From an uncultured Candidatus Saccharibacteria bacterium (GTDB lineage: Bacteria > Patescibacteriota > Doudnabacteria > UBA920): 64,000 nt of DNA. The stretch lies in the NCBI GenBank assembly GCA_964474825.1, contig CAYYWQ010000001.1, positions 1,033,606-1,097,605 of the forward strand, written 5' to 3'. Shown one piece after another: positions 40,602 to 54,045 of the stretch. The notes under the pieces are model-generated. The model did no database searches, was not told the origin of the DNA, and was given only the letters and a program-made list of their open reading frames with translations. The position numbers and the translations under genes are program-made. Within the stretch, counting starts at the first letter, position 1; every line of letters begins with the position of its first letter.

Positions 40602-41380
40602 ACAGCTTTTGCATTTTGCCACAGTGCTTCAAATACAGTTTTGTGCATTTTGTAAATTGCAGGGTGTTCTATGGTCATACTGACAATTTTTCCGGCTTCC
40701 ATGCTAATGTAAGAAATCTTGCCGTCGTAAATGTACATTATGGTGGAAAAGGCCGCGGGCGCCGGTATAACGCGAACCTGGGTAACGTTGGGGTTAAAAG
40801 TTTTAGCGTGCTGCCGCACAAAAGCGGAGTCCACCATAATAATTTTTTTCTTTATGCCTTTAGTTGTCCGCGCTTCCGTAAAGTTTTTGTTAAGTTCAGG
40901 AAATTGTTTATTTAGCGCCTCGCTGTCTATGTAAGAATAAATTTCCGTAGCTGAAGTTAAAGAATCCTCCACGACCTGTTGTGCTCCGTCCAATCCTTCG
41001 AAAAATTTAATTGTTGGTTTGGTTGCCGCGAGTTGATAAAGACTTCTAAGTCCCGGTAAGGTTTTGCCCAATTCTTCCTCCGCCGTTGTAATGGCGGATT
41101 TTTGTTTAGCTAAAAGAAGTTCCAGGTGCTCTGGATGTTTGGCTATAAATTTGGTGGTGGTTTTTGGCAAGTCTTGTTTTTCTACTAATCCTTTGGCTAC
41201 TAAGCTGTCCAGGTGGTAGTAAGCGTTGCCGCGCTTTAACTTGGTGTGGAATAAAATTGGCTTCATGCTTTGCGGACCCAAGTTTAAAAGCAGCTCGTAG
41301 ATTTGGGCTTCGTTTTTGTTGAGGCCTAGTTTTTCCAGGAGGGGGATATAAGGGGATTGTTGTATTTGATTATTATCCAT
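40598..41380 (-). CDS. TrmB-family transcriptional regulator (N-terminal wHTH)
   Basis: The N-terminus KNEAQIYELLLNLGPQSMKPILFHTKLKRGNAYYHLDSLVAKGLVEK matches the TrmB winged-helix pattern. Confidence 0.55.
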   Translation of the reverse strand: MDNNQIQQSPYIPLLEKLGLNKNEAQIYELLLNLGPQSMKPILFHTKLKRGNAYYHLDSLVAKGLVEKQDLPKTTTKFIAKHPEHLELLLAKQKSAITTAEEELGKTLPGLRSLYQLAATKPTIKFFEGLDGAQQVVEDSLTSATEIYSYIDSEALNKQFPELNKNFTEARTTKGIKKKIIMVDSAFVRQHAKTFNPNVTQVRVIPAPAAFSTIMYIYDGKISYISMEAGKIVSMTIEHPAIYKMHKTVFEALWQNAKAV

Positions 41381-41500
41381 ATACCCTTATTATGCGCCCT
41401 TTTTAGAATTTTGTCAAGTTAAAACTGACATTTTACTATTAATTTAAGCCATTTATTTAAAAGAAATATAGAGTTTATATATTATTACATCAGTATATTA

Positions 41501-41529
41501 TTGACATTTTGTCAAATTTAGACTACAAT
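41501..41529 (+). promoter_or_regulatory. Near-consensus sigma70 promoter (TTGACA-N17-TACAAT) pointing into the GC-rich island
   Basis: TTGACA is at 41501-41506, the spacer is 17 nt, and TACAAT is at 41524-41529. Confidence 0.5.
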
Positions 41530-41536
41530 GCGTAGT

Positions 41537-43240
41537 TAACATAAAAACAGCAAAAAGCACCTTTTACAATATATATGACTTTCTGAGGAGAGAGTCGGCA
41601 ATAGGCGCCGAAAAGCCTGGTAAATTAAGTCTTTTTGTCGCAATAAGCGGCTAATTGGTTATCTCTCCCAAAGAAATAGCTTGTTAGCCGCTTTTTTGGT
41701 AGAAGGGGATTTGGAGAAGAATACACCACATATTTCTTCTTCAAGTCTCTCTCTATAAAGAGGAGAGAGCCTGCGCTTAAAAAGAGCAGGTAAAAAATTC
41801 TTTTAAAACCATTTGTCTTGCTCAAAGGTTGGAGTAAGGATTAGAAACCCTAAAACAACCCCGCTCCATGCTCAGCATGGAGAAAGTAGACTTTAGCTAG
41901 AGTAGGTAAGTTACAGTGTTAAGCGCTTCGGCTTACAGGAAGCCGCGGCCCTGACCGCTTACCTATGGACCTAGCAATGAGTGCACCCTTCATAACCCAA
42001 AAGGTTGTGAAGGGAACAGTCATTGTTATAAGTAGAATATAGAATCTAGAAGATAGAATTTAGGAAATAGGTGCGTGCGGAAATTTTTATCGCCTGTGGT
42101 AAATATTTCTGCCCTCGCTACTACAGGAGTAGTGAGGTAGCACCTTAAAATTTTCAAATAAGATTTTAATTTTTGCTTAAGTTCGTCTTAAGCGTATTAG
42201 ATTTTGTCGGCAGCGTTGAGCAGCAAAGCTATGTCTTTGCTTTTTTAAGCTGCCGACAAGCCATGCATCTTTTTGGCGCATGGCAGCAGAAAAGGAGGCG
42301 GATATCGTGGAATACCCGCCGGGCAAGCAATAAAATTGCCGGGGTACAGCGTGAACCCTATCCCAAATTCGCTCGACAACTTCTGTGGCCTTTGCAGAAG
42401 ATCGTATTGATAAGGCAACCGGCAAGCAATTCTTGCCAAAGGAGGGTGGAAATGAAAACTCCACCTGGAAATAGGGGTAACTGGAAGAGGCCCAAAAAAC
42501 CAGCAACCGGAAACCTAGGGTATTAGTTGTCCCTAAGTGGAAGGTAAAAACCCGTCGCCGACAACTAAATGTGCTGCAGGAGTAAGGTAAGACTAGTAGT
42601 TATATTAGTAGGCTTGGATAAGGGCGTATGATCCTGGACTGAGTTAAAAGTATAATGAAGTGCTTATCTGAAACTGCACACATGGCAAGGAAGAGTCCTC
42701 CCTCCAGGAGGTGAGCGAGCTTGGGATAGTATCTCCGGGCCGCCTGCCTGGAGAAACTGCTCTATACCCCGAGGATCCGATGCTTCATGATTTGGGGTGA
42801 ACTTCCAGACGCCCAGGCACTTTGTTTTAGGAGGTGTGTTATGTTGAAACTTCCGTTTTAGCCCGGTCTCTGGATCCGGGCGAAGCCTGCCGCAAGGTAG
42901 GAAAACCAGCAACCAACCTATAGCAACAGATAGCTATGGGAAGGTTTACCCTAGGCCGTGTCTGTATGTTTTGTTAAGTAGTTTACGGAAAGGCGGATGA
43001 TCTGGAACGTAAACGAAAGGCGAGGCATGGTCGTGTGGTCCCGTGCGGCAACGGGACAAGGAAGAAAGTCTCTCCGCGTCTGTGGAGAGGATGGGCGAGC
43101 TCGGGACACAATTCCGCGGCTCGGCCTGTCCGAGTCCGCGGGAGAATGCCCAGAATCTTTCAGACGCCCGAGCGTTTTTGTTGTAAAAATCAAAACCGCC
43201 CGCGGCGCCGGATGATGCGCCAAGGGCAAAGGAGCTTGTC
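41537..43240 (+). other. About 1.7-kb non-coding, hairpin-dense leader / candidate large structured RNA preceding the Ubl-conjugation operon
   Basis: There is no ORF with credible composition. I saw at least ten perfect 5-10-bp hairpins by eye. Two 26-nt direct repeats lie at 42803-42828 and 43158-43183. G+C rises sharply from about 41830 onward. Confidence 0.3.
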
Positions 43241-44308
43241 ATGGTTGAGGTAAAATGGGGTGCAAATGCGGATCGTCCGTATTGGTTTCCCTTTAGTGAT
43301 CAGATAAAAGAATGGCTCTCTAATAACGAGAGCCTGCCAGACACTTTGTTGTACCTGCGCCCAACGTATAAGGAGGGGCAGCAGGAGCAAGTGGCTGGAC
43401 GTTTGGTTGTTGTGCTGGGTCGTGATGATTGGCCGAGCACAAAAGGGACCCTTGAGGCGGAAGGGAGCTTGAAGATTGACTTCATTCCGCAGGGTAATTT
43501 TCTTCGGATTTGGGGGCTACCAAATTGTCCCGACCGGAGAGACGGCGAGGAGGTGGTGAGGATTCTGAGTCGTCTGTTGCCCGAGGTTGCAAAGACTGAC
43601 CCACAAAAAAAACTTGCAATAATGGCAATGGTCTCTGAGGCCTATGTTAAAGAGTGCTCGAAGAGATTTGAAAAAACCCTTGAAGGAACCCGCAAGGCGA
43701 TCAAAGACGGTAACGCAGCCGTGGCCAAGCTCCAAGTGGAGCTCGTGAAAAAGATTCGCGAGACCCGAGGGGCTGAGCGCAAGCTTGAGCAAATGGAGTC
43801 CTCGCGCGAAGCGCAGACCGAAGGATACGCGCAGGAGTTTAATAAACTCCTGCAGGTCCCTAAAGTCCGTAGGGTGGAGGCAAAGGAGGGCAAAGTGATA
43901 GTTTACACCGACGTTCTTTTTTGTACGGATCCCCGGACGGGGATATGTCACGAGATTGGCGCGTTCAGGATTGAACTAGTTGCGGATATGGGGATCCCGT
44001 ACTGGTTTAACTTAACCCGTTCCGTTGACGGGTACAACAATAGAATGCAGGCACCACATATTTACTCGAACGGGCAGGCCTGTCTGGGTAACGCCGCGGA
44101 AATCTTCCCGGAACTCATAGGTAACTATGAGTTTGCGGCCGCAGCCATGGTGGCTATCCAGTTCGTGGAGTCGGTGAACACCGACGACACGGCTGGAAAA
44201 CACATTGACAAGTGGCCGGTGGCGAAGGAGCAACCGGTCAAAATCGCAACCGCAACAAAGGTGGCAAATTTAGTGCCGCCACAACCGTCTTGGAGGAGCA
44301 ATGGCTGA
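43241..44308 (+). CDS. E2-like (UBC-fold) ubiquitin-conjugating enzyme homolog with a roughly 200-aa N-terminal coiled-coil extension
   Basis: The C-terminal segment IPYWFNLTRSVDGYNNRMQAPHIYSNGQACLGNAAEIFPEL parallels the E2 core YPF.PP...F.T.IyHPNI..nG.ICLdiL, with the catalytic Cys in the xCL position. An SD (aaggag) precedes the ATG. Its stop overlaps the next gene. Confidence 0.5.
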   Translation: MVEVKWGANADRPYWFPFSDQIKEWLSNNESLPDTLLYLRPTYKEGQQEQVAGRLVVVLGRDDWPSTKGTLEAEGSLKIDFIPQGNFLRIWGLPNCPDRRDGEEVVRILSRLLPEVAKTDPQKKLAIMAMVSEAYVKECSKRFEKTLEGTRKAIKDGNAAVAKLQVELVKKIRETRGAERKLEQMESSREAQTEGYAQEFNKLLQVPKVRRVEAKEGKVIVYTDVLFCTDPRTGICHEIGAFRIELVADMGIPYWFNLTRSVDGYNNRMQAPHIYSNGQACLGNAAEIFPELIGNYEFAAAAMVAIQFVESVNTDDTAGKHIDKWPVAKEQPVKIATATKVANLVPPQPSWRSNG

Positions 44309-45035
44309 AAAGTTAAGGCGTGAGTGGGGCGGCGCCAAGAAGTTTGCGCCTCATGAATTTTCCTCGCGAGTAGAACTCGCGGGAGGCTTGCCTCGGGTTC
44401 TCGTGACCCGCGATGCGTACGAAGATATGTACTGCATCGTTGACGCGGTCGACAAAGAGGTAGGTTGGCTTGGCGCTGTCCAGCGTCTCGGAAATGATTT
44501 TCTGATCACGGAGGTTTTCCTCTTTGACCAGGAGACGCACGCGACAACGTGTGAGATCACGCCCGACGGCATGGCGGAGTTCGCCATGCAGCTCATGTCG
44601 TCCCGACCGGACGGCATGGAAGTAGCCAACTCAATCCGCTTCTGGGGGCACAGTCACGTGAATATGGGGACCAGCCCTTCGGGGCAGGACGAGACCCAAT
44701 TGCGTGAGCTGGCGGCTTCGTGTGGTGATTTTTTCGTTCGGGGCATTTTGAATAAGTCCGGACGGATGGAGTGGACCATCGTACTTGCTTCTGTTGGCGT
44801 CGTAATCCGCGACGCCGCGTGGGAGCTTTACGAACCCGCCGCCGATGCCCGCCGCCGACAGCGGTGGGAGGCGGAAATCGCAACTAAAGTCCGGGAAAAG
44901 ACCTACCCGCAACCGACCTTCGGGTCGGAACGTCGGTGGTCATCAACGATTATTCCCGGACCGGTCGCCTCCGCGGTCCCGCTCTCCAAGCGGGCACAGC
45001 GGCGGCTAGAGAAAGCGGGCAAAAATGGCCATTGA
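44301..45035 (+). CDS. JAB/JAMM (MPN+) metalloprotease-family protein, a putative Ubl-processing/deconjugating peptidase
   Basis: It has a complete JAMM motif: E (LITEVF) ... HSHVNMGTSPSGQD, which is HxHx7Sx2D. It overlaps both neighbours, indicating translational coupling. Confidence 0.65.
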   Translation: MAEKLRREWGGAKKFAPHEFSSRVELAGGLPRVLVTRDAYEDMYCIVDAVDKEVGWLGAVQRLGNDFLITEVFLFDQETHATTCEITPDGMAEFAMQLMSSRPDGMEVANSIRFWGHSHVNMGTSPSGQDETQLRELAASCGDFFVRGILNKSGRMEWTIVLASVGVVIRDAAWELYEPAADARRRQRWEAEIATKVREKTYPQPTFGSERRWSSTIIPGPVASAVPLSKRAQRRLEKAGKNGH

Positions 45036-45732
45036 TCCGCTTCGGCATCTAAGCGTCTTTTCGCCGCATGCCTTTGGGCAGCGGCGGGTAGACGTAATTG
45101 GCTGCGGGGCCACAGGGTCCCGTATTGTGCTTTCTTTGGCGAAGCTCGGCGTGGAGAACATTCACGTGTGGGACTTCGACGTCGTCGAAGAGCACAACAT
45201 TCCGAACCAAGCGTTCTGGCAGGAAATGCACGTCGTGCACGATTCTGCCAAACCGAAGCTGGCGAAGGTCTCGGCCATGGCCGAGATCGTCGAGATCGCC
45301 ACGGGGACCAAAATCACCGTCCATCAGGAGAAGGTGGACGGCACCCAAAGCTTGGGTGAAGTAGTTTTTCTTCTCACCGACACCATGTTTTCGAGAAAGG
45401 AGATTTGGGAAGGAGCCTTGAAGTTCAAGCTCCGGACCGAACTCTTAATTGAGACCCGCATGGGTGCGGACTCGGGCCGGGTGTATAGCCTGGACCCGAA
45501 TAAGCTCGGCCAAATCAAAGCATACGAGGAGACTCTGTGTTCTGACGAAGAGGCCGAGGTTAGCGCTTGCGGCGCAAGTGTGTCGGTGGGGTCAACCGCG
45601 GAAGTGATTTCCGGACTCGCGGTCTGGCAAATGATTCGATGGTTTTCCATTGAGCAGGGAGGCGACGATGAGCTCGACAACGAGATCATTTTTGGCCTCC
45701 GCCCAATGCTGACCATCAGCAGGAAGTTTTGA
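45025..45732 (+). CDS. ThiF/MoeB-type E1-like activating enzyme
   Basis: It has the Rossmann/ATP motif VDVIGCGATGSRIVLSLAKLGVENIHVWDFDVVEEHNIPNQ, with Gly-rich GxGxxG and acidic DxD, and a downstream Cys-containing block ACGASVSVGSTAEVISGLAVW, which is the E1 catalytic-Cys region. Confidence 0.7.
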   Translation: MAIDPLRHLSVFSPHAFGQRRVDVIGCGATGSRIVLSLAKLGVENIHVWDFDVVEEHNIPNQAFWQEMHVVHDSAKPKLAKVSAMAEIVEIATGTKITVHQEKVDGTQSLGEVVFLLTDTMFSRKEIWEGALKFKLRTELLIETRMGADSGRVYSLDPNKLGQIKAYEETLCSDEEAEVSACGASVSVGSTAEVISGLAVWQMIRWFSIEQGGDDELDNEIIFGLRPMLTISRKF

Positions 45733-45733
45733 T

Positions 45734-46051
45734 ATGGGCTGGCTGGCGGGCCGTAACGAGATAATTCAACTTCGTCTCCAACCACCAAAGCCAACGGCCT
45801 ATGTTAATTTTGGTTCAGGTATTGAGTTCACTGCCGACTTCATTGTTGGTATGACACTTCGCAACCTGATCCAGTTTTTGCAGCAGAACTGTAGCTATCG
45901 TTCTATTCACGGCGATGAAATCCCGTGGTTGCATGACTTCCTGCGAACCGGCGACCTTAAGAATTTCCCGGCGGATTTGGACTATGTTATCCAGCCGGGT
46001 GACAAAATTGTTCTGGACTTAACGAAGTTGTTGAGTCCGGTAAGTAAGTAA
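45734..46051 (+). CDS. Small beta-grasp (ubiquitin-like/ThiS-like) protein without a terminal Gly-Gly
   Basis: It has the C-terminal beta-grasp-like DYVIQPGDKIVLDL pattern. Its start is 1 nt after the E1 stop. It ends ...LLSPVSK, with no GG. Confidence 0.4.
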   Translation: MGWLAGRNEIIQLRLQPPKPTAYVNFGSGIEFTADFIVGMTLRNLIQFLQQNCSYRSIHGDEIPWLHDFLRTGDLKNFPADLDYVIQPGDKIVLDLTKLLSPVSK

Positions 46052-46183
46052 ATGTAGTATAGAGGCCGGCATTGCCGCCCGTCGAATGTAGACGTTAAAA
46101 AATATGGGTCCCAAAGGGATTAAATTTAAAACCCATCCGCAGTTTGTAGAGCATTGGCAAACAGCGAAGACAGGAGTAAAACA

Positions 46184-46966
46184 ATGCGGAGTTTCATTAA
46201 CGTCAGAATCGGCCGGCTCCCCGGTCGGATTTCGGAAATTGTGCTTAATGGCGACCGCACGGTCGCTACCGCGTTGATGACCGCCGGCCTGGACAGCGCT
46301 GGCTACGATATCCGGGTGCAGGGTGCACCCGCGAGCATGACAACCGGACTCAACGAGGGGGACATTGTCCTCCTCGTGAAGAAGATCAAGGGGAACGGCG
46401 GGATTGAGGGCGCAACCTTCGTTCACGTCGGCCGCGTCCCCGGACCCGGTCTTGTCCAGTTTGCACTGGATGAGCCCACGGTCTTCATGGCTTTGTCTGC
46501 CGCTGGTCTCAATCTGGGGCCGGATGAGGTGGTTTACCGCAACGACCAGCTTTCTTCCATCGGGGAACCGGTGGAAGACGGCGACAAGATCGTCGTCCGG
46601 CATCCGATGCCGGCGATGGTCGCGGCTTCGCCGGAATTGCCGTCCGGCTTGCACCAGACTGCGCCGGTAGTTTCTGCCACGTTCGATTTCTCGGCCGTGG
46701 TCGGCACCGACCCGGCCCAGCTCTGCTCCAGCGCGGAACGGCTGACCCGCGAAGCGGAGGAGCTCGAGGCGGGAGCTCGCGCCGCGCTCGCCAGCGCGGC
46801 CGAGAAGAAGGTTGCGGCCTCGGCCCATTGGGCCAAAGCCGCGGCTATCGAGACCGCCAACGAGGCGTTGGCAAATGCCAGCGCCCAGCTCGAAACCCTT
46901 GGGGTTATTCGCCCCAAGGGCGAAGGACGGTGGACTGATATCCGCCGCCTCTTCGGCCTCTCGTAG
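46184..46966 (+). CDS. Tandem beta-grasp (multi-ubiquitin-like) protein with an internal KGNGG and a C-terminal Ala-rich coiled coil
   Basis: Module 1 is INVRIGRLPGRISEIVLNGDRTVATALMTAGL...EGDIVLLVKKIKGNGG, with a diglycine at the module end. Module 2 is ...GPDEVVYRNDQLSSIGEPVEDGDKIVVRHP. The SD (aggag) favours the ATG at 46184 over the track start at 46154. Confidence 0.5.
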   Translation: MRSFINVRIGRLPGRISEIVLNGDRTVATALMTAGLDSAGYDIRVQGAPASMTTGLNEGDIVLLVKKIKGNGGIEGATFVHVGRVPGPGLVQFALDEPTVFMALSAAGLNLGPDEVVYRNDQLSSIGEPVEDGDKIVVRHPMPAMVAASPELPSGLHQTAPVVSATFDFSAVVGTDPAQLCSSAERLTREAEELEAGARAALASAAEKKVAASAHWAKAAAIETANEALANASAQLETLGVIRPKGEGRWTDIRRLFGLS

Positions 46967-47376
46967 TAGACGAGGTGCGCGAAATTTTGTCACCGTCTTA
47001 GCAACAGATGGCGAGACAAGCAGGGGCAGACCTGCAAACATCAAATTAATAAAAAGGAAAATAAAAAAAGGTAAAAAAATAAATCTTCCCGCAAGGGTTG
47101 CCTGAAACCTTAAAGCACCACAGGCGTAAAAGCACGGGTACACTGATCGTAATGTCAACGAGTTTAATAAAATAGGTCTCTGCCACAAGGCGGAGGCCAT
47201 CGAGTCAAGAAGTAAATGGCAGGGTGATGCCCACCTGCCAGCCACGAAGTTGTGGCAAACAAAACGGGACAATGCACCAAGATTGGGGAGAGGTAGACTG
47301 CACACCTACCTTTCCTCTTTCCAATTTAGCGCACAAAATTTTTGTGAGCTGGATTGGGAGGTGAAGTATTAAAAAA

Positions 47377-47622
47377 TTACCAGAACTTCTTTGCCAGTTC
47401 TGCCAGCGCAAGCTGGAGGGCTGGGAAGATTACCGGCAGACGCACGAATGCGTCTGCGGAGCTAAGTACTTTGTCGTCTCGCATGACGACTTGTGTATGG
47501 CTCCGAGTTTGGCCCACGATGCCTTTGGTATTAAGGAAGAAGGCGCGGTCGAAGTCAGGGTCATCGAGAAGTTCGATGTCCTGACCGATGAAGGCCAGGT
47601 TCCGGAAGATGGGGATTGGCAA
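47377..47622 (-). CDS. Small hypothetical protein on the island
   Basis: An 81-aa ORF with an SD (aggaaggg) 9 nt upstream of the ATG on the - strand. It has no recognisable motif. Confidence 0.25.
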   Translation of the reverse strand: MPIPIFRNLAFIGQDIELLDDPDFDRAFFLNTKGIVGQTRSHTQVVMRDDKVLSSADAFVRLPVIFPALQLALAELAKKFW

Positions 47623-47699
47623 GACATGGTCTTTGCCCTTCCTAAAAAATAAAAAGCCCGGTTGGTGGACCGGTTAAATAAAACCGCTAAGCACTCAAA

Positions 47700-47752
47700 T
47701 TTGGGACGAGTGAGTTAACAGTCATTCGTCCCAAATTTATTTATTATTTATC
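47700..47752 (+). terminator. Intrinsic terminator (ttgggacga-N14-tcgtcccaa + T-rich tail)
   Basis: A 9-bp perfect stem at about 47703-47736, followed by tttatttattatttatc. It probably ends the Ubl operon transcript. Confidence 0.4.
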
Positions 47753-47918
47753 TTCAATCACCTGCCGGAATGACGGCTTAAGAGTAGTTGGGGAGCTGTA
47801 TGGTTTAGCCAATTAATTTTGGTACAAATCTCTCTCCTCAAGCGGCTCCTTAATGCTTTTAAACTTTTCATTTCGGCAGTTGGGTGGAGGAAAAATAAAA
47901 AAAACAAAGGTGAACAAA

Positions 47919-48500
47919 ATGTTTAGTTGGTTGTTAAGATGGTTGAACTTGGACAAACCAACGGCCACAGGTGCGGCCGTTGAACAAGTGACGACAGAAG
48001 TTGCGGTCGTCGAAAAACCAAAAACGTCAGAGCCCCCGCCTGCCCCGCGGGAGGAGGCGGACCGGGACACGCATGTACTTAATTCCCAGTATCGCAGCAT
48101 TCGGCCGTTTGTGCCGGCGGCTGAAGTTCCCAAGGCCGTTGTGGCGGCGGATCTTGTGGAGTTTGAGGCTATTCCCGCTGGAGACGGGAAAACGGCGCCC
48201 GGGGATTGCCGACCGACGCGATTCCCCAATGGGGCGATCCTTGAGGTTGTCCAGAAAAGGGAGGGGGTAGTAATGGTGCGGTGCTATGTGCCGTACCACT
48301 ACACCAACAGGAGGTGGTGGCGGCCAGAAAAATTGATGGGTCAAATTTTTTTGATGCCAACAGAGAGATTTTGTTGGCTGGCCCAGCAGAAGTACCCGCC
48401 GGGCCACTGGGCTTTGCGGGACTACCGGGACGAGGTGGCCCGTCGGCAAGCTCAGGGCTTGCTGGATTACATCAACCTGCCCCCGCCTGGGGGCAAATAA
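47919..48500 (+). CDS. Hypothetical protein on the island
   Basis: The start MFSWLLRWL is preceded by an SD (aaggtg). The track start at 47853 has no SD. It is Pro/Ala-rich N-terminally, and I could not identify a domain. Confidence 0.4.
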   Translation: MFSWLLRWLNLDKPTATGAAVEQVTTEVAVVEKPKTSEPPPAPREEADRDTHVLNSQYRSIRPFVPAAEVPKAVVAADLVEFEAIPAGDGKTAPGDCRPTRFPNGAILEVVQKREGVVMVRCYVPYHYTNRRWWRPEKLMGQIFLMPTERFCWLAQQKYPPGHWALRDYRDEVARRQAQGLLDYINLPPPGGK

Positions 48501-48517
48501 ACGAAGCATTCAGTTTT

Positions 48518-48565
48518 GGCCGAAAGCACGCACTTTCGCTTTCGGCCACTTCTTTCAGATTACGA
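48518..48565 (+). repeat. Copy 1 of a roughly 48-nt direct repeat (GC hairpin ggccgaaagc/gctttcggcc + ctttcagattacga), followed by a TTGACA promoter-like site at 48657
   Basis: It is more than 90 percent identical to 50052-50099. Both copies are followed about 80-100 nt later by ctgaaag and a TTGACA -35-like hexamer. Confidence 0.5.
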
Positions 48566-48789
48566 CTCATGTCGCGGTCTGAAAGTTGTCGAGGTTATAG
48601 TTTGGAACATCTGCTTTGTGAGCGCCCTTGCTTGGTAGATGTTCCGCATTTTGGCCTTGACAATAACAGTAGTTTGTGATAAATTAAGTAGTTAAAACTT
48701 AATATTTCTCAAGGGCGCATTTTGCGCCCTTTTTTTGTTTGCCTTTTTCTTTTAGCCCGCAGTGATGGCGGGTTGGAAGAAGGAGGAAT

Positions 48790-49104
48790 ATGGATAAGAG
48801 TGTTTTTGGATTTGTGTCCGCCTTTTTGGTGGACTCGGGATACAACTTGGAATGGAAAACCCAGGAAGGGCGGACATTCGAGGTTTCCGGTGACCCCAGG
48901 TTTCCGGAAATGTATTACGAGGTTTTTGATTCGGCCAAAAAGGTGATCCGTAAGCAGGAAGCGGATTTTGCTTTTGAGGCCGCTTCAGGAGATTTTTTTC
49001 TCTTTCTTTTCTCCGGCGAGGAGAAGAAAGGAGAGTCTTTGTCCAGGGAGCAATTTTTGGACCAGGTGCAGAATCGGTTCCCGGCATTTGTCCGGATCCG
49101 ATAG
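48790..49104 (+). CDS. Hypothetical small protein
   Basis: A strong SD (gaaggagg) lies 6 nt upstream of the ATG. The 104-aa protein is acidic. Confidence 0.45.
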   Translation: MDKSVFGFVSAFLVDSGYNLEWKTQEGRTFEVSGDPRFPEMYYEVFDSAKKVIRKQEADFAFEAASGDFFLFLFSGEEKKGESLSREQFLDQVQNRFPAFVRIR

Positions 49105-49142
49105 GCTAAGATGCTGGTACATAATTTAAAGAAGAAAGCAAT

Positions 49143-50027
49143 TTGAGAAAAGAAGGAGAGGTTTTGACTGTGCCGCGAAAAAAAGGGCCGCAGGCTAAAC
49201 AGAAACAGCGGGAGGCCGACGAACGGCGCAAAAAAGGTACGGCCAAACCGGCTAATGAGTCGGCAAGGGCGTATCTTAACAACAAGGAAATGGCGATGCC
49301 GCTCGACAAGCTGCATCAATATCTTCGTGACAAGAAGGGGTTTAATGTTTCCAGGGCGACCGCCTGGCGCGCCAAAAGGACGGGGTATTTTTATCCGCAA
49401 CACGTGCCGACGTTTGGCGCTAAGCGGATTAAATTGACCCTGGATGAGAGGTCTGCTTCGGTGGATTTTTTGGTCAAGCGGTTTGGCTTTACCCGTCAAA
49501 CCGCCCGGGAAGCCAAGCGGCGTGGGTGGTTTACGGTCGACGTGAACACACGCGGCCGTATTAGGATTCCGGCAGACCGTTATGTTCCGCCGGCGGAGCT
49601 CAAACCTGAGCTGGTGGTGGAAAGGGTAGACCTCACTCAGGAGGAGAGGCAGGCTTTTCCGGATTTTTTGGCAAAGCGGTTCGGGATTTCCCGTCGTACC
49701 GCCGCGGTAGCCAAGGAGCGCGGCTGGTTCAAAGTTTTGCCCGCAATGAGGGGGAAGCTGCGAATTCCCAATGACCGCAAAATGCCGAGCATTTTCCCGG
49801 GGAAAAAGGTGGAGCTGACCACCTCGGAAATGCAGACCAGCCTGGATTTCTTGGTTAATCGGTTCGGCATTCACCGCACTACTGCCGCGGTAGCCAAGGA
49901 GCGGGGGTTCTTTATTGTCATGTCGCAACATATGGGCAAGACAAGGATTCCCGTGAATCGAGTGGTGGGCATGGATGAGACGCGGTATTTCCGTCGCGGC
50001 CGGCCCCCAAAGCCTGGAAAAAAATAA
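49143..50027 (+). CDS. Protein with four tandem excisionase/AlpA-type HTH (HTH_17-like) repeats
   Basis: There are four repeats of about 35 aa: FLVKRFGFTRQTAREAKRRGWFTV...GRIRIP, FLAKRFGISRRTAAVAKERGWFKV...GKLRIP, FLVNRFGIHRTTAAVAKERGFFIV...GKTRIP, and a diverged first copy YLRDKKGFNVSRATAWRAKRTGYF. The real start may be the GTG at about 49170, after an SD (aaggagagg). Confidence 0.5.
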   Translation: MRKEGEVLTVPRKKGPQAKQKQREADERRKKGTAKPANESARAYLNNKEMAMPLDKLHQYLRDKKGFNVSRATAWRAKRTGYFYPQHVPTFGAKRIKLTLDERSASVDFLVKRFGFTRQTAREAKRRGWFTVDVNTRGRIRIPADRYVPPAELKPELVVERVDLTQEERQAFPDFLAKRFGISRRTAAVAKERGWFKVLPAMRGKLRIPNDRKMPSIFPGKKVELTTSEMQTSLDFLVNRFGIHRTTAAVAKERGFFIVMSQHMGKTRIPVNRVVGMDETRYFRRGRPPKPGKK

Positions 50028-50051
50028 GGAGGGGGCATGAGACTTGCAGCA

Positions 50052-50099
50052 GGCCGAGAGCACGCACTTTCGCTTTCGGCCATTTCTTTTAGAATACGA
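50052..50099 (+). repeat. Copy 2 of the roughly 48-nt direct repeat, followed by a TTGACA-N16-TATATT promoter (50132-50159)
   Basis: The match to 48518-48565 is seen directly in the sequence. The promoter hexamers are near consensus. Confidence 0.5.
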
Positions 50100-50399
50100 T
50101 AAGTATCGTGACCTGAAAGAAGTTCTAGTACTTGACAAACCCCCAATTCGTGCTATATTAGGTATACACATTGCACGATTTGGGGATGATATGTGCGCTT
50201 CCGATTCACCCGCTTTAGGCGTAAATATCGGATAAAATAATAAAACCTTAGACCGAAAACATTAAGTTTTCGGTAGGGTTAGTTTGTCGCCAGTTTTTAT
50301 TTTAATGGTAAAAAATCTGATAAACTCTTAATTTTAATAATACCTTTTATTTAAGCCATAAAAGGTATATTTTTAGTGTCTCTGCAACTTTCTTTTGTT

Positions 50400-50491
50400 G
50401 TCATCCCGAGCGACTGCTGAGTGCATCCGAAGCAGGAGTCGAGGGATCCCTCCACTCGCCCTCGGATGCACTCGGGCTCGGTCGGGATGAC
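50400..50491. repeat. Roughly 92-bp GC-rich imperfect palindrome centred on GGATCC, immediately upstream of rpoB (MITE/REP-like element or attenuator)
   Basis: The arms gtcatcccga...gagtgcatccga...gaggga and tccctc...tcggatgcactc...tcgggatgac are reverse complements apart from an internal indel. G+C is far above the surrounding AT-rich intergenic DNA. Confidence 0.5.
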
Positions 50492-50550
50492 ATCTGTAAA
50501 AATTTTTAATTTTTGTTTGTCAATTAATCAACTAATTAAAGGATATATAA

Positions 50551-53500
50551 ATGCCCGCCAAAGCATCAAACGTCGCCTTAGCTAAGCCTGAGCGCAAAAT
50601 CGTCCGCAAGTTTTTTACCAAAGACCACGAAACCAAGTTGCTACCCAACCTTATAGAGGTGCAGCTCGACTCTTATAAATGGTTTTTGGAAAAAGGCCTT
50701 AAAGAACTTTTAGGGGAAGTTACTCCTATTAGAGACTTTACTGGCAAGAATTTAGAATTGTTCTTTGGCGATTACTTTTTTGACAAAACCAAGTACGACG
50801 AATTCCTTTCCCGCGAACGCAACACCACTTTTGAAGCTCCTTTGTACGTGAGCGCTAAGCTTATTAACAAAGTTACGGGCAAAACGAAAACTCAAGACGT
50901 TTACTTTGGCGATTTTCCTTTAATGACCCCGCGCGGAACTTTTATAATCAACGGTGTAGAACGCGTTGTAGTTAACCAGCTTATAAAATCCCCGGGTGTA
51001 TTTTTTACTTCGGAAAATGTCCGCGGAAAAGTTTTGTACGGCGCGAAAATTATTCCTAACCGCGGCGCATGGCTGGAACTAGACACTGACAGCAGCGGCG
51101 TTATTGGCGTAAAAATAGACCGCAAACGCAGAATTCCTATTACAGCTTTAATCCGCGTGTTTGGTTTAACTTCTAACGAAGACATTTTAGCCGCTTTTAA
51201 AGATGTAGACACAGACCCGGACGTAAAATACATTCAATCCACTTTAGAAAAAGACGCTTCCACTAACGCAGACGAAGGTTTTAAAGAAGTTTATAAAAGA
51301 ATCCGCCCGGGAGACTTAGCCACAGTAGACAACGCTAAATCCCTCATCAGTGGTATGTTCTTTAACCTAGAAAGATACGATCTTTCCCCGGTTGGCCGCT
51401 ACAAATTTAACCAACGCTTGCATATAGACGAAAGCCGCGACAACGCACTGCTTCTTTTGGAAGATTTGCTCGCGGTTGTTAAAGAAGTTATTCGTTTAAA
51501 CAACACCCAAGAAACTCCGGACGACATTGACCACTTAGCCAACCGCCGCGTGCGCGCCGTGGGTGAATTAATCCAAACTCGCTTCCGCGTAGGTCTTGCT
51601 CGTATGGCCCGTATTGCCAAAGACAGAATGAGCTTGGCGGATTTAGAAAGCGTAACTCCGGCTCAGCTTATTCATGTCCGTCCTATTGTGGCCACTATGC
51701 AGGAATTCTTTTCCTCTTCCCAGTTGTCACAATTTATGGACCAAACAAATCCTTTGGCCGAACTGGAACACAAAAGAAGGCTCAGTGCCATGGGCCCTGG
51801 TGGTCTTAGCCGTGAACGCGCTGGGTTTGAAGTTCGTGACGTGCACCATAGCCATTACGGCAGGCTTTGCCCAATCACCACTCCTGAAGGACCAAACATT
51901 GGTTTGGTTGCCCACTTGGCTACTTATGCCAGAGTAAATGATTTTGGTTTTATTGAAACTCCTTACCGAAAAGTTAAAAAGGTCGCCAAGAACGACGGCA
52001 AAGACGCGGTAGGGGAAATTGCTTCGTTCGATATTAAAGACGAAAAAGGTAATGTTATTGTAGCTGCCGGAGCGGAAATTTCTGCTACCGCTGCCAAAGA
52101 AATTGCCAAGAACGAACAACTTTTGGAAGTTCCGGTTAAAGCCCGTGTTCTGTTTTCCGAAGTAATGTATTTGGATGCTTTTGAAGAAGAAGAGCTTATT
52201 ATTGGTGCGGCCGGTATTGCCTTTGACGAAAAAGGTTACTTTATAGAGCAGCGTGCTTCTGTAAGACTGCACACAGTGCCAAGTATTGCCGCCACTTCCG
52301 AAATAGACTGCATAGACGTGTCCCCAAAACAAATTATTTCCGTAACCACCTCCCTCATTCCATTCTTGGAACACGATGATGCTAACCGTGCGTTAATGGG
52401 CAGCAACATGCAACGTCAGGCCGTGTCCTGCATTAAGCCGGACGCGCCTTTAGTGGGTACTGGTATGGAAGCCAAAGCCGCGCGCGACAGCGGCACGGTT
52501 GTAGTTTCCGAAGAAGACGGGGAAGTTGTTTCTGTAACCGGCGACAAGATTGTAGTTGTTGGCGACAAAGGCAAAAAGAAAGAGTATCACTTATTAAAAT
52601 TTTTACGTACCAACTCAGCCACGGCTGTTAACCAAATCCCTAGAGTAAACAAAGGCCAAAAAGTTAAGAAAGGCGATTTGCTCGCAGACGGCGCCTCCAC
52701 CGAAGACGGAGAATTGGCTTTGGGACAAAACGTTTTAGTGGCTTTCCTTTCCTGGGAAGGTGGTAACTATGAAGATGCTATTTTGGTTTCTGAGCGCGTA
52801 GTTCAGCAGGACCGCTACAGCTCCATTCATATAGATGACTTTAAAATAGACGTGCGCGACACAAAACTCGGGCCCGAACAAGTTACCCGAGACATTCCTA
52901 ATGTTGGTGAAGAAAAGTTAAAAGACTTAGACGAAAACGGAGTCATCCGCATTGGCGCGCAAATTAAATCCGGTGACATTTTAGTCGGTAAAATTACGCC
53001 AAAAGGTGAGACCGATTTAACCGCAGAAGAAAAACTGCTTCGCGTAATTTTTGGTGAAAAATCCAGGGACGTAAAAGACACTTCCCTTACGCTTCCTCAC
53101 GGTGAATACGGAAAAGTTGTTAACATCCGCGAATTTACCAGGCAGGCCGGGGACAAATTACCTTCCGGTGTTATTCGAAGCATTCAGGTTTCTGTTGCTG
53201 TGCTTAGGAAAATCCAGGTAGGGGATAAAATGGCCGGACGCCACGGTAACAAAGGTGTTATTTCAAAAATTATTCCAGTTGAAGACTTGCCATTCATGAA
53301 AGACGGCCGCGCCGTGGACATTGTCTTAAACCCGCTTGGTGTTGTGTCCCGTATGAACCTGGGACAAATTTTGGAAACCCATTTGGGTATGGCCGCTTAT
53401 AAACTCGGCTACCATGTGGCTACTCCCGTTTTAGACGGAGTCACAGAAGGCGAAATTAAATCGGAACTCAATCGTGCCGGCGTGCCGGAAGACGGTAAAG

Positions 53501-54045
53501 TTGTTTTGTACGACGGAAAAACCGGCGAGGCTTTTGACGAAAAAGTTACGGTTGGTGTTATGTACATGTTAAAACTCCACCACTTAGTAGACGACAAAAT
53601 GCATGCCCGCTCAACCGGTCCGTACAGCTTAATTACCCAGCAGCCACTTGGTGGTAAAGCGCAGTTCGGTGGACAACGTTTTGGAGAAATGGAAGTCTGG
53701 GCTTTGGAAGGTTATGGCGCGGCTCACACTTTGCAGGAAATGTTGACCATAAAATCCGACGACGTAGTCGGCAGAAGCAAAACCTACGAAGCTATTGTTA
53801 AAGGCGAACCAATTAAGAAGCCAAACATTCCGGAAAGTTTCCGTGTTTTAGTTAAAGAATTACAAAGTTTAGGATTAGACGTAGAGCTGCTGGGAGCCGA
53901 CGGCAGCATAACTACTGCGGCGCAGGAACAGGAAATAGTAGTGCCGGGCGGCATGCAAATGCCATCCGCTGTCCCTGACCTTTCTCTGTTTGAGGATGAG
54001 CCAAAGAAAGAGAAAAAGTATAAAAAGGAGAAAAAAAGTAAATAG
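50551..54045 (+). CDS. rpoB: DNA-directed RNA polymerase subunit beta
   Basis: It has canonical RpoB blocks (FFGDYFFD..., [61 protein letters not shown]). Confidence 0.97.

What the first reader, a model, noticed from the sequence alone, without database searches (positions are those of the whole stretch)
48518..50165. Two-gene cassette flanked by a duplicated hairpin-plus-promoter module
The 48-nt segment ggccga(a/g)agcacgcactttcgctttcggcca(c/t)ttcttt(c/t)aga(t/a)tacga occurs at 48518-48565 and 50052-50099. Each contains a perfect 10-bp GC hairpin. Each is followed within about 100 nt by ctgaaag and a TTGACA -35 hexamer (48657; 50132, with TATATT at 50154). Between the copies lie a 104-aa acidic protein and the four-HTH-repeat protein. 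Direct repeats that carry promoters and bracket a DNA-binding-protein gene could be duplicated regulatory sites (the HTH protein's own operators), recombination sites of a small mobile cassette, or att-like scars.
Basis: seen in the sequence. Interest (0 to 1): 0.55.

Follow-up and report, generated by a model that had tools for sequence, protein, structure and literature searches.

The report
Duplicated double-hairpin terminator–promoter module
A 68-base two-hairpin element sits in two copies on either side of a small two-gene unit at the edge of a foreign DNA island just upstream of the RNA polymerase genes of a Patescibacteria bacterium. It most likely marks transcript ends and restarts, not a jumping-gene boundary, and is an interesting but fairly ordinary kind of regulatory repeat.

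Summary
The repeat is real. It is 68 nt long, 48518-48585 and 50052-50119, 82% identical, with only two close copies in the window and none expected by chance.

Each copy folds into two adjacent hairpins, HP1 and HP2, joined by a U-rich linker. The fold is as good or better on the coding strand in every copy. Each copy starts 17-24 nt after a stop codon and is followed by one of the four best sigma-70-like promoters in 10 kb.

A homologous double hairpin lies about 200 nt upstream of a homologous HTH-repeat gene in an unrelated metagenomic contig (L085). It shows 8 compensatory base pairs. A sequence-diverged third double hairpin sits at 47285-47357.

The locus is a GC-rich foreign island (about 42.2-50.1 kb) abutting rpoBC in a roughly 42% GC Patescibacteria genome. 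The 104-aa protein is an orphan. The HTH protein is an N-terminally short member of an unannotated family.

Best reading (about 0.5): composite transcript-end/insulator plus promoter modules acting on sense RNA, analogous to the PeSL cassettes of T4-type phages. No recombinase, cassette-minus variant or further exact copy was found in the public collections. Operator and recombination-site readings are not excluded. Uneven divergence (1/31 against 11/37 differences) hints at gene conversion or crossover in HP1.

Interest is moderate to low.

The parts
48518..48547 (+). Left copy, HP1: 10-bp GC-rich stem GGCCGAAAGC/GCTTTCGGCC with a 10-nt loop ACGCACTTTC. It starts 17 nt after the stop codon (48498-48500) of the 193/215-aa ORF.
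   Evidence: -17.1 kcal/mol
48548..48585 (+). Left copy, U-rich linker (ACTT) plus HP2. The outer stem is CTTTCAGATT/GGTCTGAAAG and the inner stem is CGAC/GTCG. The U-rich tract after HP1 forms the 5' arm of HP2.
   Evidence: -17.2 kcal/mol
48586..48663 (.). Extra imperfect inverted repeat, present only in the left intergenic region (27-nt arms, 74% complementary). Its 3' arm carries the -35 hexamer.
   Evidence: I4
48657..48685 (+). Left sigma-70-like promoter, TTGACA-17-TAAATT, with a TG-extended -10.
   Evidence: 10/12 matches
48711..48740 (+). Canonical intrinsic terminator, AAGGGCGCATTTTGCGCCCTT followed by a T-run. It lies about 20 nt downstream of the predicted start of the left promoter's transcript, in attenuator position.
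48742..48786 (+). Long hairpin, CCTTTTTCTTTTAGCCCGC / GCGGGTTGGAAGAAGGAGG, that sequesters the Shine-Dalgarno sequence of the 104-aa ORF.
   Evidence: z = -5.9 for 48686-48800
48790..49104 (+). 104-aa mildly acidic ORF. It is an orphan with no Pfam, PHROG or PADLOC hit and no homologue other than itself.
49164..50027 (+). ORF with four HTH repeats, 287 aa from TTG 49164 (294 aa from 49143). It is an N-terminally short member of an unannotated family with 69 cluster representatives. The AlphaFold model has mean pLDDT 86, and each repeat is strand-helix-helix-helix-strand.
50052..50081 (+). Right copy, HP1. The stem has one G-U wobble (GGCCGAGAGC/GCTTTCGGCC) and the loop is identical to the left copy. 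It starts 24 nt after the HTH ORF stop codon (50025-50027).
   Evidence: -17.2 kcal/mol
50082..50121 (+). Right copy, linker plus HP2 (TTCTTTTAG..ACGATA/TATCGT..CCTGAAAGAA). Relative to the left copy it has one compensatory pair (C-G to U-A) and a U-G wobble.
50132..50159 (+). Right sigma-70-like promoter, TTGACA-16-TATATT, with a TG-extended -10. It reads into a 390-nt structured leader and then rpoB (50551).
   Evidence: (11/12 matches)
47285..47357 (+). Candidate third double hairpin, diverged in sequence but with the same layout (HP1, U-rich linker, HP2). It lies in the island's 0.9-kb non-coding stretch.
   Evidence: R2 24.9 bits; + strand -43.5 vs - strand -29.0 kcal/mol
47919..48500 (+). 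193-aa ORF (215 aa from 47853), whose stop codon precedes the left copy. It is an orphan.

Best explanation
**What it is.** The repeat is a double-hairpin module that folds on the sense strand: HP1, a U-rich linker, then HP2. It closes two successive transcription units inside a GC-rich foreign island inserted directly upstream of rpoBC in a Patescibacteria genome.

**How it most likely works (inferred).** The module acts on the RNA.
- HP1 plus the U-rich tract acts as an intrinsic-type terminator or insulator for the gene that ends 17-24 nt upstream.
- HP2 uses the same U-rich tract as its 5' arm. It acts as a back-up terminator or as a stabilising or processing structure on read-through RNA.
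- A sigma-70-type promoter just downstream restarts transcription. On the left it serves the 104-aa/HTH unit, which is further gated by a canonical terminator and a hairpin that sequesters the Shine-Dalgarno sequence. On the right it serves the long structured rpoBC leader.
- The two copies therefore make the cassette a transcriptionally self-contained unit and shield rpoBC from island transcription. This is the same logic as PeSL terminator-promoter cassettes in T4-type phages.

**Shown here.** The repeat itself, its fold and strand bias, its position relative to stop codons and promoter-like sites, a homologue with compensatory changes in a related locus, and the foreign composition of the island.

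**Inferred.** Termination, promoter activity, and the origin of the duplication. The duplication probably arose by module-to-module recombination or gene conversion.
For: - **Repeat is non-random.** 68 nt at 82% identity, and the core occurs twice against 0 expected.
- **Fold.** Both copies fold into two adjacent hairpins with z = -5 to -7.5.
- **Strand bias.** The + strand folds as well or better in all copies: -38.6/-37.6, -33.7/-24.9 and L085 -37.6/-29.6 kcal/mol. The candidate third copy gives -43.5/-29.0. This bias comes from G-U pairs and favours RNA over double-stranded DNA.
- **Substitutions keep pairing.** Between the two window copies there is 1 compensatory pair and 2 wobble changes, with 94% of cells paired against 32-42% when partners are slid.
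- **Homologue in L085.** A covariance model built from the two copies finds one clear match outside the window, L085 715-786 (28.7 bits, E about 1e-5). It lies about 200 nt upstream of a homologous HTH-family gene, on the same strand, and is followed by a canonical terminator and a hairpin that sequesters the Shine-Dalgarno sequence.
- **Covariation with three sequences.** 8 pairs change on both sides and 94.6% of cells are paired.
- **Position.** The copies begin 17 and 24 nt after stop codons of + strand ORFs.
- **Promoters.** Each copy is followed by one of the four best promoter matches in 10 kb.
- **Similar double hairpins downstream of + strand ORFs in related islands.** L083 350-419 lies about 100 nt after the nearest ORF, L086 3388-3448 about 125 nt after, and L086 10606-10682 only 24 nt after a stop codon. 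The promoter/terminator scan was run on L083 only and lists the hairpin at 353-373, GGCGATTGGCACTCAATCGCC followed by ACCTTTTTCG, as terminator-like.
- **Island edge.** The right copy sits at the GC transition where the island meets the rpoB leader. Island GC3 is 0.55-0.75 against 0.33-0.47 for host genes.
Against: - HP1 is not a textbook terminator. Its loop is 10 nt and its U-tract is interrupted (ACUUCUUUC / AUUUCUUUU), and the consensus scan did not list it.
- Canonical terminators lie downstream of the module in L085 (10 nt away) and in the left copy (125 nt away). These would be partly redundant with a terminating HP1.
- In L085 no ORF was called upstream of the module.
- Terminated RNA would end inside the 5' arm of HP2, which leaves HP2 without a clear role.
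- Covariation rests on 3 sequences in an alignment fitted to the model. A palindromic DNA operator would covary in the same way.
- There are no expression data.
- The identity of the HP1 loop (10/10) against heavy divergence of HP2 is explained better by recent recombination than by terminator function alone.
Confidence: 0.5

Rival explanations
1. **PeSL-like recombination substrate.** The two homologous hairpin/promoter modules are the sites where the 104-aa/HTH cassette was inserted by homologous or module-targeted recombination. The cassette could be looped out again as a 1.5-kb circle carrying one module. This reading is compatible with the modules also being terminators and promoters.
For: - Direct repeats bracket an orphan gene unit.
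- There is a run of 24 identical bases, within a 31-nt core that differs at a single position (48524). Divergence is significantly uneven, 1/31 against 11/37 differences (p=0.004). The 10-nt loop is fully identical, although it is unrelated in L085. This pattern fits crossover or gene conversion in HP1.
- L086 also shows duplicated 60- and 42-nt leader modules at about 82% identity that bracket the HTH-family gene and its neighbours. Two small genes lie between modules that are adjacent at the other site.
- PeSL cassettes in T4-type phages behave in this way (PMC2839356, PMC4122927).
Against: - No cassette-minus or circular junction could be looked for. Both other assemblies of the locus are 100% identical and contain the cassette.
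- There are only 2 close copies, not a dense array.
- The HTH gene with an upstream module is the ancestral-looking layout in L085, so the left copy need not be an insertion scar.
- No recombinase was recognised nearby.
Confidence: 0.2
2. **Double-stranded DNA operators.** The palindromes (GGCCGAAAGC-N10-GCTTTCGGCC and CTTTCAG-N20-CTGAAAG) are binding sites of the four-HTH-repeat protein, or of the divergent TrmB-like regulator. Binding would autoregulate the cassette and the neighbouring promoters.
For: - The palindromes lie next to promoters on both sides of a DNA-binding-protein gene.
- A homologous palindrome pair lies upstream of a homologous HTH gene in L085. Half-sites that covary are also expected for operators bound by a dimer.
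- GAAAG/CTTTC pentamers recur five times within the left copy (read directly from the sequence).
- The protein is a confident multi-HTH model.
Against: - The strand asymmetry of folding and the G-U (not A-C) substitutions are not expected for double-stranded DNA sites.
- The modules lie 13-72 nt upstream of the -35 hexamer and do not overlap the promoters.
- The sequence of the sites differs strongly between the window and L085 (HP1 GGCCGAAAGC against GGGCGAGAAG).
- Four tandem HTH repeats in one chain suggest an extended asymmetric site, not two short palindromes.
Confidence: 0.12
3. **Site-specific or single-stranded-DNA recombination sites.** The copies would be attL/attR scars, integron attC-like sites or IS200/IS605-like ends of a small element mobilised in trans.
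For: - The copies are direct repeats in the same orientation, with a near-identical core and diverged arms.
- The hairpins are strand-specific, as is typical of single-stranded-DNA recombination substrates.
- The right copy lies at the compositional boundary of the island.
Against: - No integrase, transposase, TnpA/TnpB or HUH domain was found in the cassette or in the annotated neighbours.
- There is no attC R''/R' consensus (GTTRRRY) at the ends, and the structure is two separate hairpins, not one bulged hairpin.
- The repeats bracket 1.5 kb and not the whole 8-kb island, and no matching repeat exists at the island's left edge.
- No exact copies occur in the viral, genome or metagenome collections.
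Confidence: 0.05
4. **Coding sequence.** The repeat would be the start of duplicated small ORFs. A 63-aa ORF at 50044-50235 was called by an automatic annotation, and a 40-aa ORF lies at 48516-48638. Alternatively it encodes a leader peptide whose translation melts the hairpins.
For: - Both copies are open in the same frame (AESTHFRFRP...).
- A strong Shine-Dalgarno sequence, AAGGAGGGGG, precedes the right copy.
- A gene was called there in the Logan annotation.
- 5 of the differences between the copies are synonymous in that frame (my own reading of the sequence).
Against: - The left copy has no Shine-Dalgarno sequence.
- The peptide is not conserved in L085, where only 3 of 13 aligned residues match (my translation), whereas the base pairing is conserved.
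- The similarity stops at the end of HP2 and does not follow the ORFs.
Confidence: 0.04

Closest known systems
PeSL (promoter-early stem-loop) cassettes of T4-type phages (Arbiol et al. 2010, PMC2839356; Comeau et al. 2014, PMC4122927)
   Same: Both are roughly 70-100-bp intergenic modules that combine a stem-loop terminator or attenuator with a sigma-70-like promoter. Both occur as direct repeats flanking ORFan genes in variable DNA, and each cassette brings its own terminator and promoter. Recombination between modules is a plausible origin in both cases.
   Different: Here there are only 2 close copies (plus 1 diverged), in a chromosomal island of a Patescibacteria bacterium and not in a phage hyperplastic region. 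There are two tandem hairpins instead of one G/C-tract stem-loop. The hairpins lie upstream of the promoter at variable distance and do not overlap it. There is no sequence similarity to PeSLs. Mini-circle formation was not tested.
Intrinsic (Rho-independent) terminators, including tandem terminators
   Same: HP1 has a GC-rich stem of -17 kcal/mol. It lies in sense orientation 17-24 nt after a stop codon and is followed by a U-rich stretch.
   Different: The loop is 10 nt and the U-tract is interrupted. The U-tract is also the 5' arm of a second conserved hairpin. A canonical terminator follows further downstream in two of three cases.
Phage 'morons' (genes that carry their own promoter and terminator)
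   Same: A small accessory gene unit is bounded by its own promoter and terminator-like structures inside horizontally acquired DNA.
   Different: Morons are not defined by homologous flanking repeats. Here the flanks are homologous.
Integron gene cassettes with attC sites
   Same: In both, a structured, strand-specific imperfect palindrome follows each ORF, the repeats are direct, and structure is conserved more than sequence.
   Different: There is no R''/R' core consensus, no single bulged hairpin and no IntI or attI. The promoters are inside the unit here, whereas integron cassettes are mostly promoterless.
REP/BIME-type intergenic palindromic repeats
   Same: Both are intergenic GC-rich palindromes at the 3' ends of genes, with roles in mRNA stabilisation and termination.
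   Different: REPs are dispersed in tens to hundreds of copies across a genome. This element was found only within one island in the 64-kb window and once in a related locus.

Membership tests
PeSL (T4-type phage promoter/stem-loop cassette) | Composite intergenic module made of a sigma-70-like promoter plus a stable stem-loop | tested here: met
   Hairpins. Promoter-like sites with 10-11 of 12 matches directly downstream. Activity itself was not tested.
PeSL (T4-type phage promoter/stem-loop cassette) | Many copies clustered in hyperplastic regions of a T4-type phage genome | tested here: not met
   There are 2 close copies and 1 diverged copy. The context is a bacterial chromosome next to rpoBC. 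The only PHROG hits in the island are two unknown-function families to the E1-like ORF and a weak one to the HTH ORF; no recognisable phage function was found.
PeSL (T4-type phage promoter/stem-loop cassette) | Flanks ORFan genes and mediates their insertion or deletion, with mini-circle formation | not testable with these tools
   Orphan status of the 104-aa ORF was shown. No indel variants are available, because L001 and L002 are identical to the window.
Intrinsic terminator | GC-rich stem-loop immediately followed by a U-tract on the transcribed strand | tested here: inconclusive
   The stem is -17 kcal/mol. The tail is ACUUCUUUC or AUUUCUUUU, which is U-rich but interrupted.
Intrinsic terminator | Located downstream of a gene's stop codon in sense orientation | tested here: met
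   The copies begin 17 and 24 nt after the stop codons at 48500 and 50027. In L085 no upstream ORF was called.
Integron attC site | R''(RYYYAAC)...R'(GTTRRRY) core sites closing a single bulged hairpin, with an IntI integrase and attI nearby | tested here: not met
   The ends are GGCCGA... and ...CTGAAAG, followed by GTTGTCG or AAGTTCT, so there is no GTTRRRY. The fold is two separate hairpins. No recombinase domain was found in the annotated ORFs from 28 to 64 kb. ORFs from 1 to 28 kb were not scanned.
Integrase-type attL/attR of an integrated element | Element-encoded recombinase, with repeats at both ends of the compositionally foreign segment | tested here: not met
   No recombinase hit. 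The repeats bracket 1.5 kb of an island of about 8 kb. No repeat is shared between the island's left edge and 46960-50560.
IS200/IS605-type element (subterminal hairpins) | TnpA (Y1 HUH) and/or TnpB between hairpin-bearing left and right ends | tested here: not met
   The two ORFs between the copies have no transposase domain. There are only weak generic HTH matches, below the Pfam cut-offs.
Any Rfam RNA family | Score at or above the family's gathering threshold | tested here: not met
   There are 0 hits at gathering score in the window. At E<=1 in 41300-50600 there is only a chance CRISPR-DR match inside the 104-aa ORF.

The most novel reading that the evidence does not exclude
The double hairpin would be a previously undescribed, strand-specific structured motif that marks cassette boundaries in a family of variable islands in Patescibacteria (TrmB-like regulator, long ncRNA, HTH-repeat gene, and so on). 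It would serve as the actual exchange point for modular gene shuffling, a chromosomal counterpart of PeSLs or integrons in ultra-small bacteria. It might be recognised by the multi-HTH family protein, whose relatives include an HNH endonuclease carrying the same repeats.
Probability: 0.12. Interest if true: 0.6.

Novelty: new variant of a known kind. Interest (0 to 1): 0.35.

Why it matters
**If the best reading holds.** This is a tidy example of how foreign DNA inserted directly upstream of the essential rpoBC operon of a reduced-genome Patescibacteria bacterium is kept transcriptionally insulated. It also adds a candidate structured RNA motif, absent from Rfam, for a phylum whose regulatory RNA is almost unknown.

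**If the recombination reading holds.** It would extend PeSL-type modular shuffling from T4-type phages to bacterial chromosomal islands.

**Other leads in the locus that may be of wider interest than the repeat itself.**
- An unannotated multi-HTH protein family.
- A conserved long structured ncRNA.
- A ubiquitin-like E1 operon.

Tried and rejected
- **Exact-pattern scans.** The 22-24-nt core found nothing in the viral, genome or metagenome collections. I could not count copies genome-wide, because the source genome is not in the searchable collections.
- **rpoB relatives.** The search for related loci with RpoB gave relatives no closer than 65% identity, and the genes upstream of rpoB are not conserved. 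No island-free close relative was available to define the insertion boundaries.
- **Scans with HTH alignments.** These failed or returned nothing. Genomic contexts had to come from exact-protein look-ups instead.
- **Extension of the duplication into the 3' ends of the upstream ORFs.** Both ORFs end in a similar way (...PPPGGK* and ...PPKPGKK*). The local alignment is not significant (322/1000 and 26/1000 shuffles), and the proteins are unrelated.
- **Direct repeats between the island's left edge and its right part.** None beyond chance 10-12-mers.
- **Rfam.** Nothing at gathering score or at relaxed thresholds.
- **Identifying the HTH protein.** A PDB sequence search and a Foldseek search with the HTH model gave no significant match. 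The best hits were non-significant lambda Cro, double-homeodomain and RepE.
- **Weak covariance-model hits in L083, L086 and L091** (E about 1e-3). I treated these as the same shape (generic tandem hairpins), not as proven homologues.
- **The 'GATTGAAAC' blocks upstream of the HTH genes in L083 and L085.** They are absent from the relevant window regions.
- **Source organism.** The accession could not be retrieved.
Full report
**Observation.** The direct repeat exists and is longer than reported. It spans 48518-48585 and 50052-50119, 68 nt, 82% identical, without gaps. The 31-nt core occurs exactly twice in the window even with 3 mismatches allowed, and never in shuffles.

Each copy folds into two adjacent hairpins:
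- HP1 has a 10-bp GC-rich stem and a 10-nt loop. The stem is perfect on the left and carries one G-U wobble on the right.
- HP2 has outer arms CTTTCAGA/TCTGAAAG.
- A short U-rich linker joins them, and this linker is also the 5' arm of HP2.

Both have a TG-extended -10, and both are among the four best matches in 41-51 kb. They lie 72 and 13 nt from the repeat. The left spacer holds an extra inverted repeat (I4). The two promoters resemble each other beyond the hexamers, but not significantly.

**Context.** The window is from a Patescibacteria (CPR) genome. The closest RpoB in 185,579 species representatives is 65% identical, and the best hits are Patescibacteria. The same sequence is on a 1.21-Mb NCBI contig.

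A compositionally foreign island spans roughly 42.2-50.1 kb:
- Its GC is 52-60% and its GC3 is 0.55-0.75, against 0.33-0.47 for the flanking genes.
- It ends at the right copy, about 430 nt upstream of rpoB (50551-54045). rpoC follows.
- It carries five ORFs around a ThiF/E1-like gene, a 0.9-kb non-coding stretch, an orphan 193/215-aa ORF, then left copy, 104-aa ORF, HTH-repeat ORF, right copy.
- Upstream of the island lie a divergent TrmB-like regulator and about 1.7 kb of strongly structured non-coding sequence.

**The genes between the copies.** The 104-aa and 193-aa proteins have no homologue other than themselves among 5.8 billion clusters. The HTH protein at first looked like an orphan. 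A profile built from its four internal repeats then retrieved 69 cluster representatives from 1.84 billion proteins.

Most members of this family are 300-420 aa. They have an extra N-terminal domain of about 190 aa, which weakly resembles sigma-70 region 4 in single members, followed by 2-4 repeats. The window protein lacks the N-terminal domain. An AlphaFold model is confident (pLDDT 86), and each repeat is strand-helix-helix-helix-strand. No PDB relative was found by sequence or by fold.

In other contigs the family gene heads a conserved set: a protein of about 260 aa, a DEAD-box helicase, a MoxR AAA+ protein and a VWA protein. In two contigs, as in the window, a TrmB-like gene lies upstream. 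In the window those downstream partners are absent and rpoB follows.

**Is the module conserved?** A covariance model built from the two copies (R1) found only those two in the window, plus their own reverse strands. It also found one clear outside match, L085 715-786 on the + strand (28.7 bits, E about 1e-5). That match lies about 200 nt upstream of an HTH-family gene that is 37% identical to the window's.

The layout in L085 matches the window's left side. HP1 and HP2 are followed by a canonical terminator, a promoter-like stretch (my reading of the sequence), a long hairpin that sequesters the Shine-Dalgarno sequence, and the ATG (compare for the window).

With three sequences, 8 of 25 pairs change on both sides and 94.6% of cells pair, against 36-46% when partners are slid. 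The alignment is fitted to the model, so this is supportive and not conclusive.

A rebuilt model (R2) also picks out a third double hairpin in the island, at 47285-47357. It is diverged in sequence but has the same layout. R2 additionally gives weak same-shape hits downstream of + strand ORFs in L083 and L086.

**RNA or DNA?** In every copy the coding strand folds as well or better: -38.6/-37.6, -33.7/-24.9, -37.6/-29.6 and -43.5/-29.0 kcal/mol. This is because the imperfections are G-U pairs, which become A-C mismatches on the other strand. The asymmetry favours a structure on the sense transcript, or on that single DNA strand, over a double-stranded operator. The position right after stop codons fits this too.

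**Mechanism.** I favour a composite transcript-end/insulator plus promoter module. HP1 with its U-rich tail would act as an intrinsic-type terminator, and HP2 as a back-up or stabilising structure on read-through RNA. A promoter would then restart transcription.

The left unit is additionally gated by a canonical terminator (48711-48740) and by a hairpin that sequesters the Shine-Dalgarno sequence (48742-48786). The right promoter feeds a 390-nt structured leader in front of rpoB (z = -8.4).

Weak points:
- HP1 has a large loop and an interrupted U-tract, and the scan did not call it.
- Canonical terminators follow downstream in two of three cases.
- The role of HP2 is unclear.

Confidence is about 0.5.

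**Rivals.**
- **PeSL-like recombination.** The main support is uneven divergence: 1/31 differences in HP1, including an identical 10-nt loop that is unrelated in L085, against 11/37 in the rest (p=0.004). L086 adds a parallel case, with duplicated leader modules of about 82% identity bracketing the HTH-family gene. Against this reading, no indel variant exists in the two other assemblies, which are 100% identical, and no recombinase was recognised.
- **Operators.** This reading is disfavoured by the strand asymmetry but remains untested.
- **attC, att and IS ends.** These fail their defining features (see the membership table).
- **Small ORF.** A small-ORF reading is unlikely because the pairing, not the peptide, is conserved in L085.

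**Comparison with known systems.** The closest functional analogue is the PeSL terminator-promoter cassette of T4-type phages (PMC2839356, PMC4122927). The logic is the same, but the sequence, architecture (two hairpins placed upstream of the promoter), copy number and host context differ, so this element is not a member of that family. No Rfam family matches.

**Verdict.** The element is a new variant of a known kind, with moderate to low interest (0.35). The more novel possibility is that this double hairpin is a cassette-boundary exchange site in variable islands of Patescibacteria. That possibility remains open at roughly 0.12.

Noticed in passing
window 41501-43240: About 1.7 kb of non-coding sequence lies between the TrmB-like gene and the island. 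It begins with a near-consensus promoter (41501-41529, 11/12 matches). The stretch 41540-42170 folds with z = -10. Block 41932-41993 is 81% identical to L085 100-158, which lies upstream of that contig's HTH gene. There is no Rfam hit. This is a candidate long structured ncRNA.
   Followed up: partly
window 42400-43245: Two tandem units of about 300-400 nt share conserved blocks (GGCGKATGATC, TGRGCGAGCTYGGGAYA, CTTYCAGACGCCC). They lie directly upstream of the 355-aa ORF and may be a tandem structured leader or riboswitch-like element. The Logan contig L001 begins at 42939, inside this repeat.
   Followed up: partly
window 43241-46966: A GC-rich operon encodes proteins of 355 aa, 244 aa, 235 aa (ThiF/E1-like, Pfam 3e-17, with weak PADLOC E1-E2 hits), 105 aa and 270 aa. 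The N-terminus of the last one reads like a beta-grasp/ubiquitin-like domain ending in ...KGNGG. This may be a ubiquitin-like conjugation (Bil/Bub-type) system in a Patescibacteria island. The other four proteins have no family hits.
   Followed up: partly
window 50160-50555: The rpoB leader is strongly structured (z = -8.4). It contains a 92-nt near-perfect long palindrome (50400-50491, GTCATCCCGAGCGA...TCGGTCGGGATGAC) about 60 nt before the rpoB start codon.
   Followed up: partly
window 48711-48786; L085 about 797-985; L086 2976-3031 and 7542-7601: Leaders that combine a canonical terminator with a long hairpin burying the Shine-Dalgarno sequence recur in front of genes in these islands. 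In L086 the hairpin that sequesters the Shine-Dalgarno sequence is itself duplicated (60 nt at 82% identity, and 42 nt at 83%).
   Followed up: partly
P0003-P0071; loci L083, L085, L086, L088, L089, L092: An unannotated protein family has a sigma-region-4-like N-terminal domain plus 2-4 copies of a novel HTH repeat (R[IV]YLT.EE...FGIS..TA..AK.RGWF.V). It heads a conserved cluster: a protein of about 260 aa, a DEAD helicase, MoxR AAA+ and VWA. A TrmB-like gene often lies upstream. In L086 the cluster is GC-richer than its flanks.
   Followed up: partly
P0002 (345 aa, Logan): An HNH endonuclease carries two copies of the same HTH repeat at its C-terminus. The repeat is therefore also used as a DNA-targeting module of a nuclease.
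   Followed up: no
L083 1940-2050 and L085 410-520: A conserved non-coding block (...GAGATGACGGCRA...GAGTGATTGARAC) lies upstream of the HTH-family genes in two contigs, and 'GGATTGAAAC' occurs again about 130-140 nt away in each. The block is not present in the window's island.
   Followed up: partly
L087-L090, L093: Several metagenomic contigs that carry HTH-family genes begin within 20-300 nt of the gene start. This suggests that assemblies systematically break in the upstream region, which may be repeated or variable sequence.
   Followed up: no
window 46967-47852: This 0.9-kb stretch has no called genes. It contains a 17-bp near-perfect hairpin (47697-47738), a minus-strand terminator-like site (47673-47658), and overlapping uncalled ORFs on both strands (47377-47622 on the minus strand, 81 aa; 47491-47652 on the plus strand, 53 aa).
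   Followed up: no
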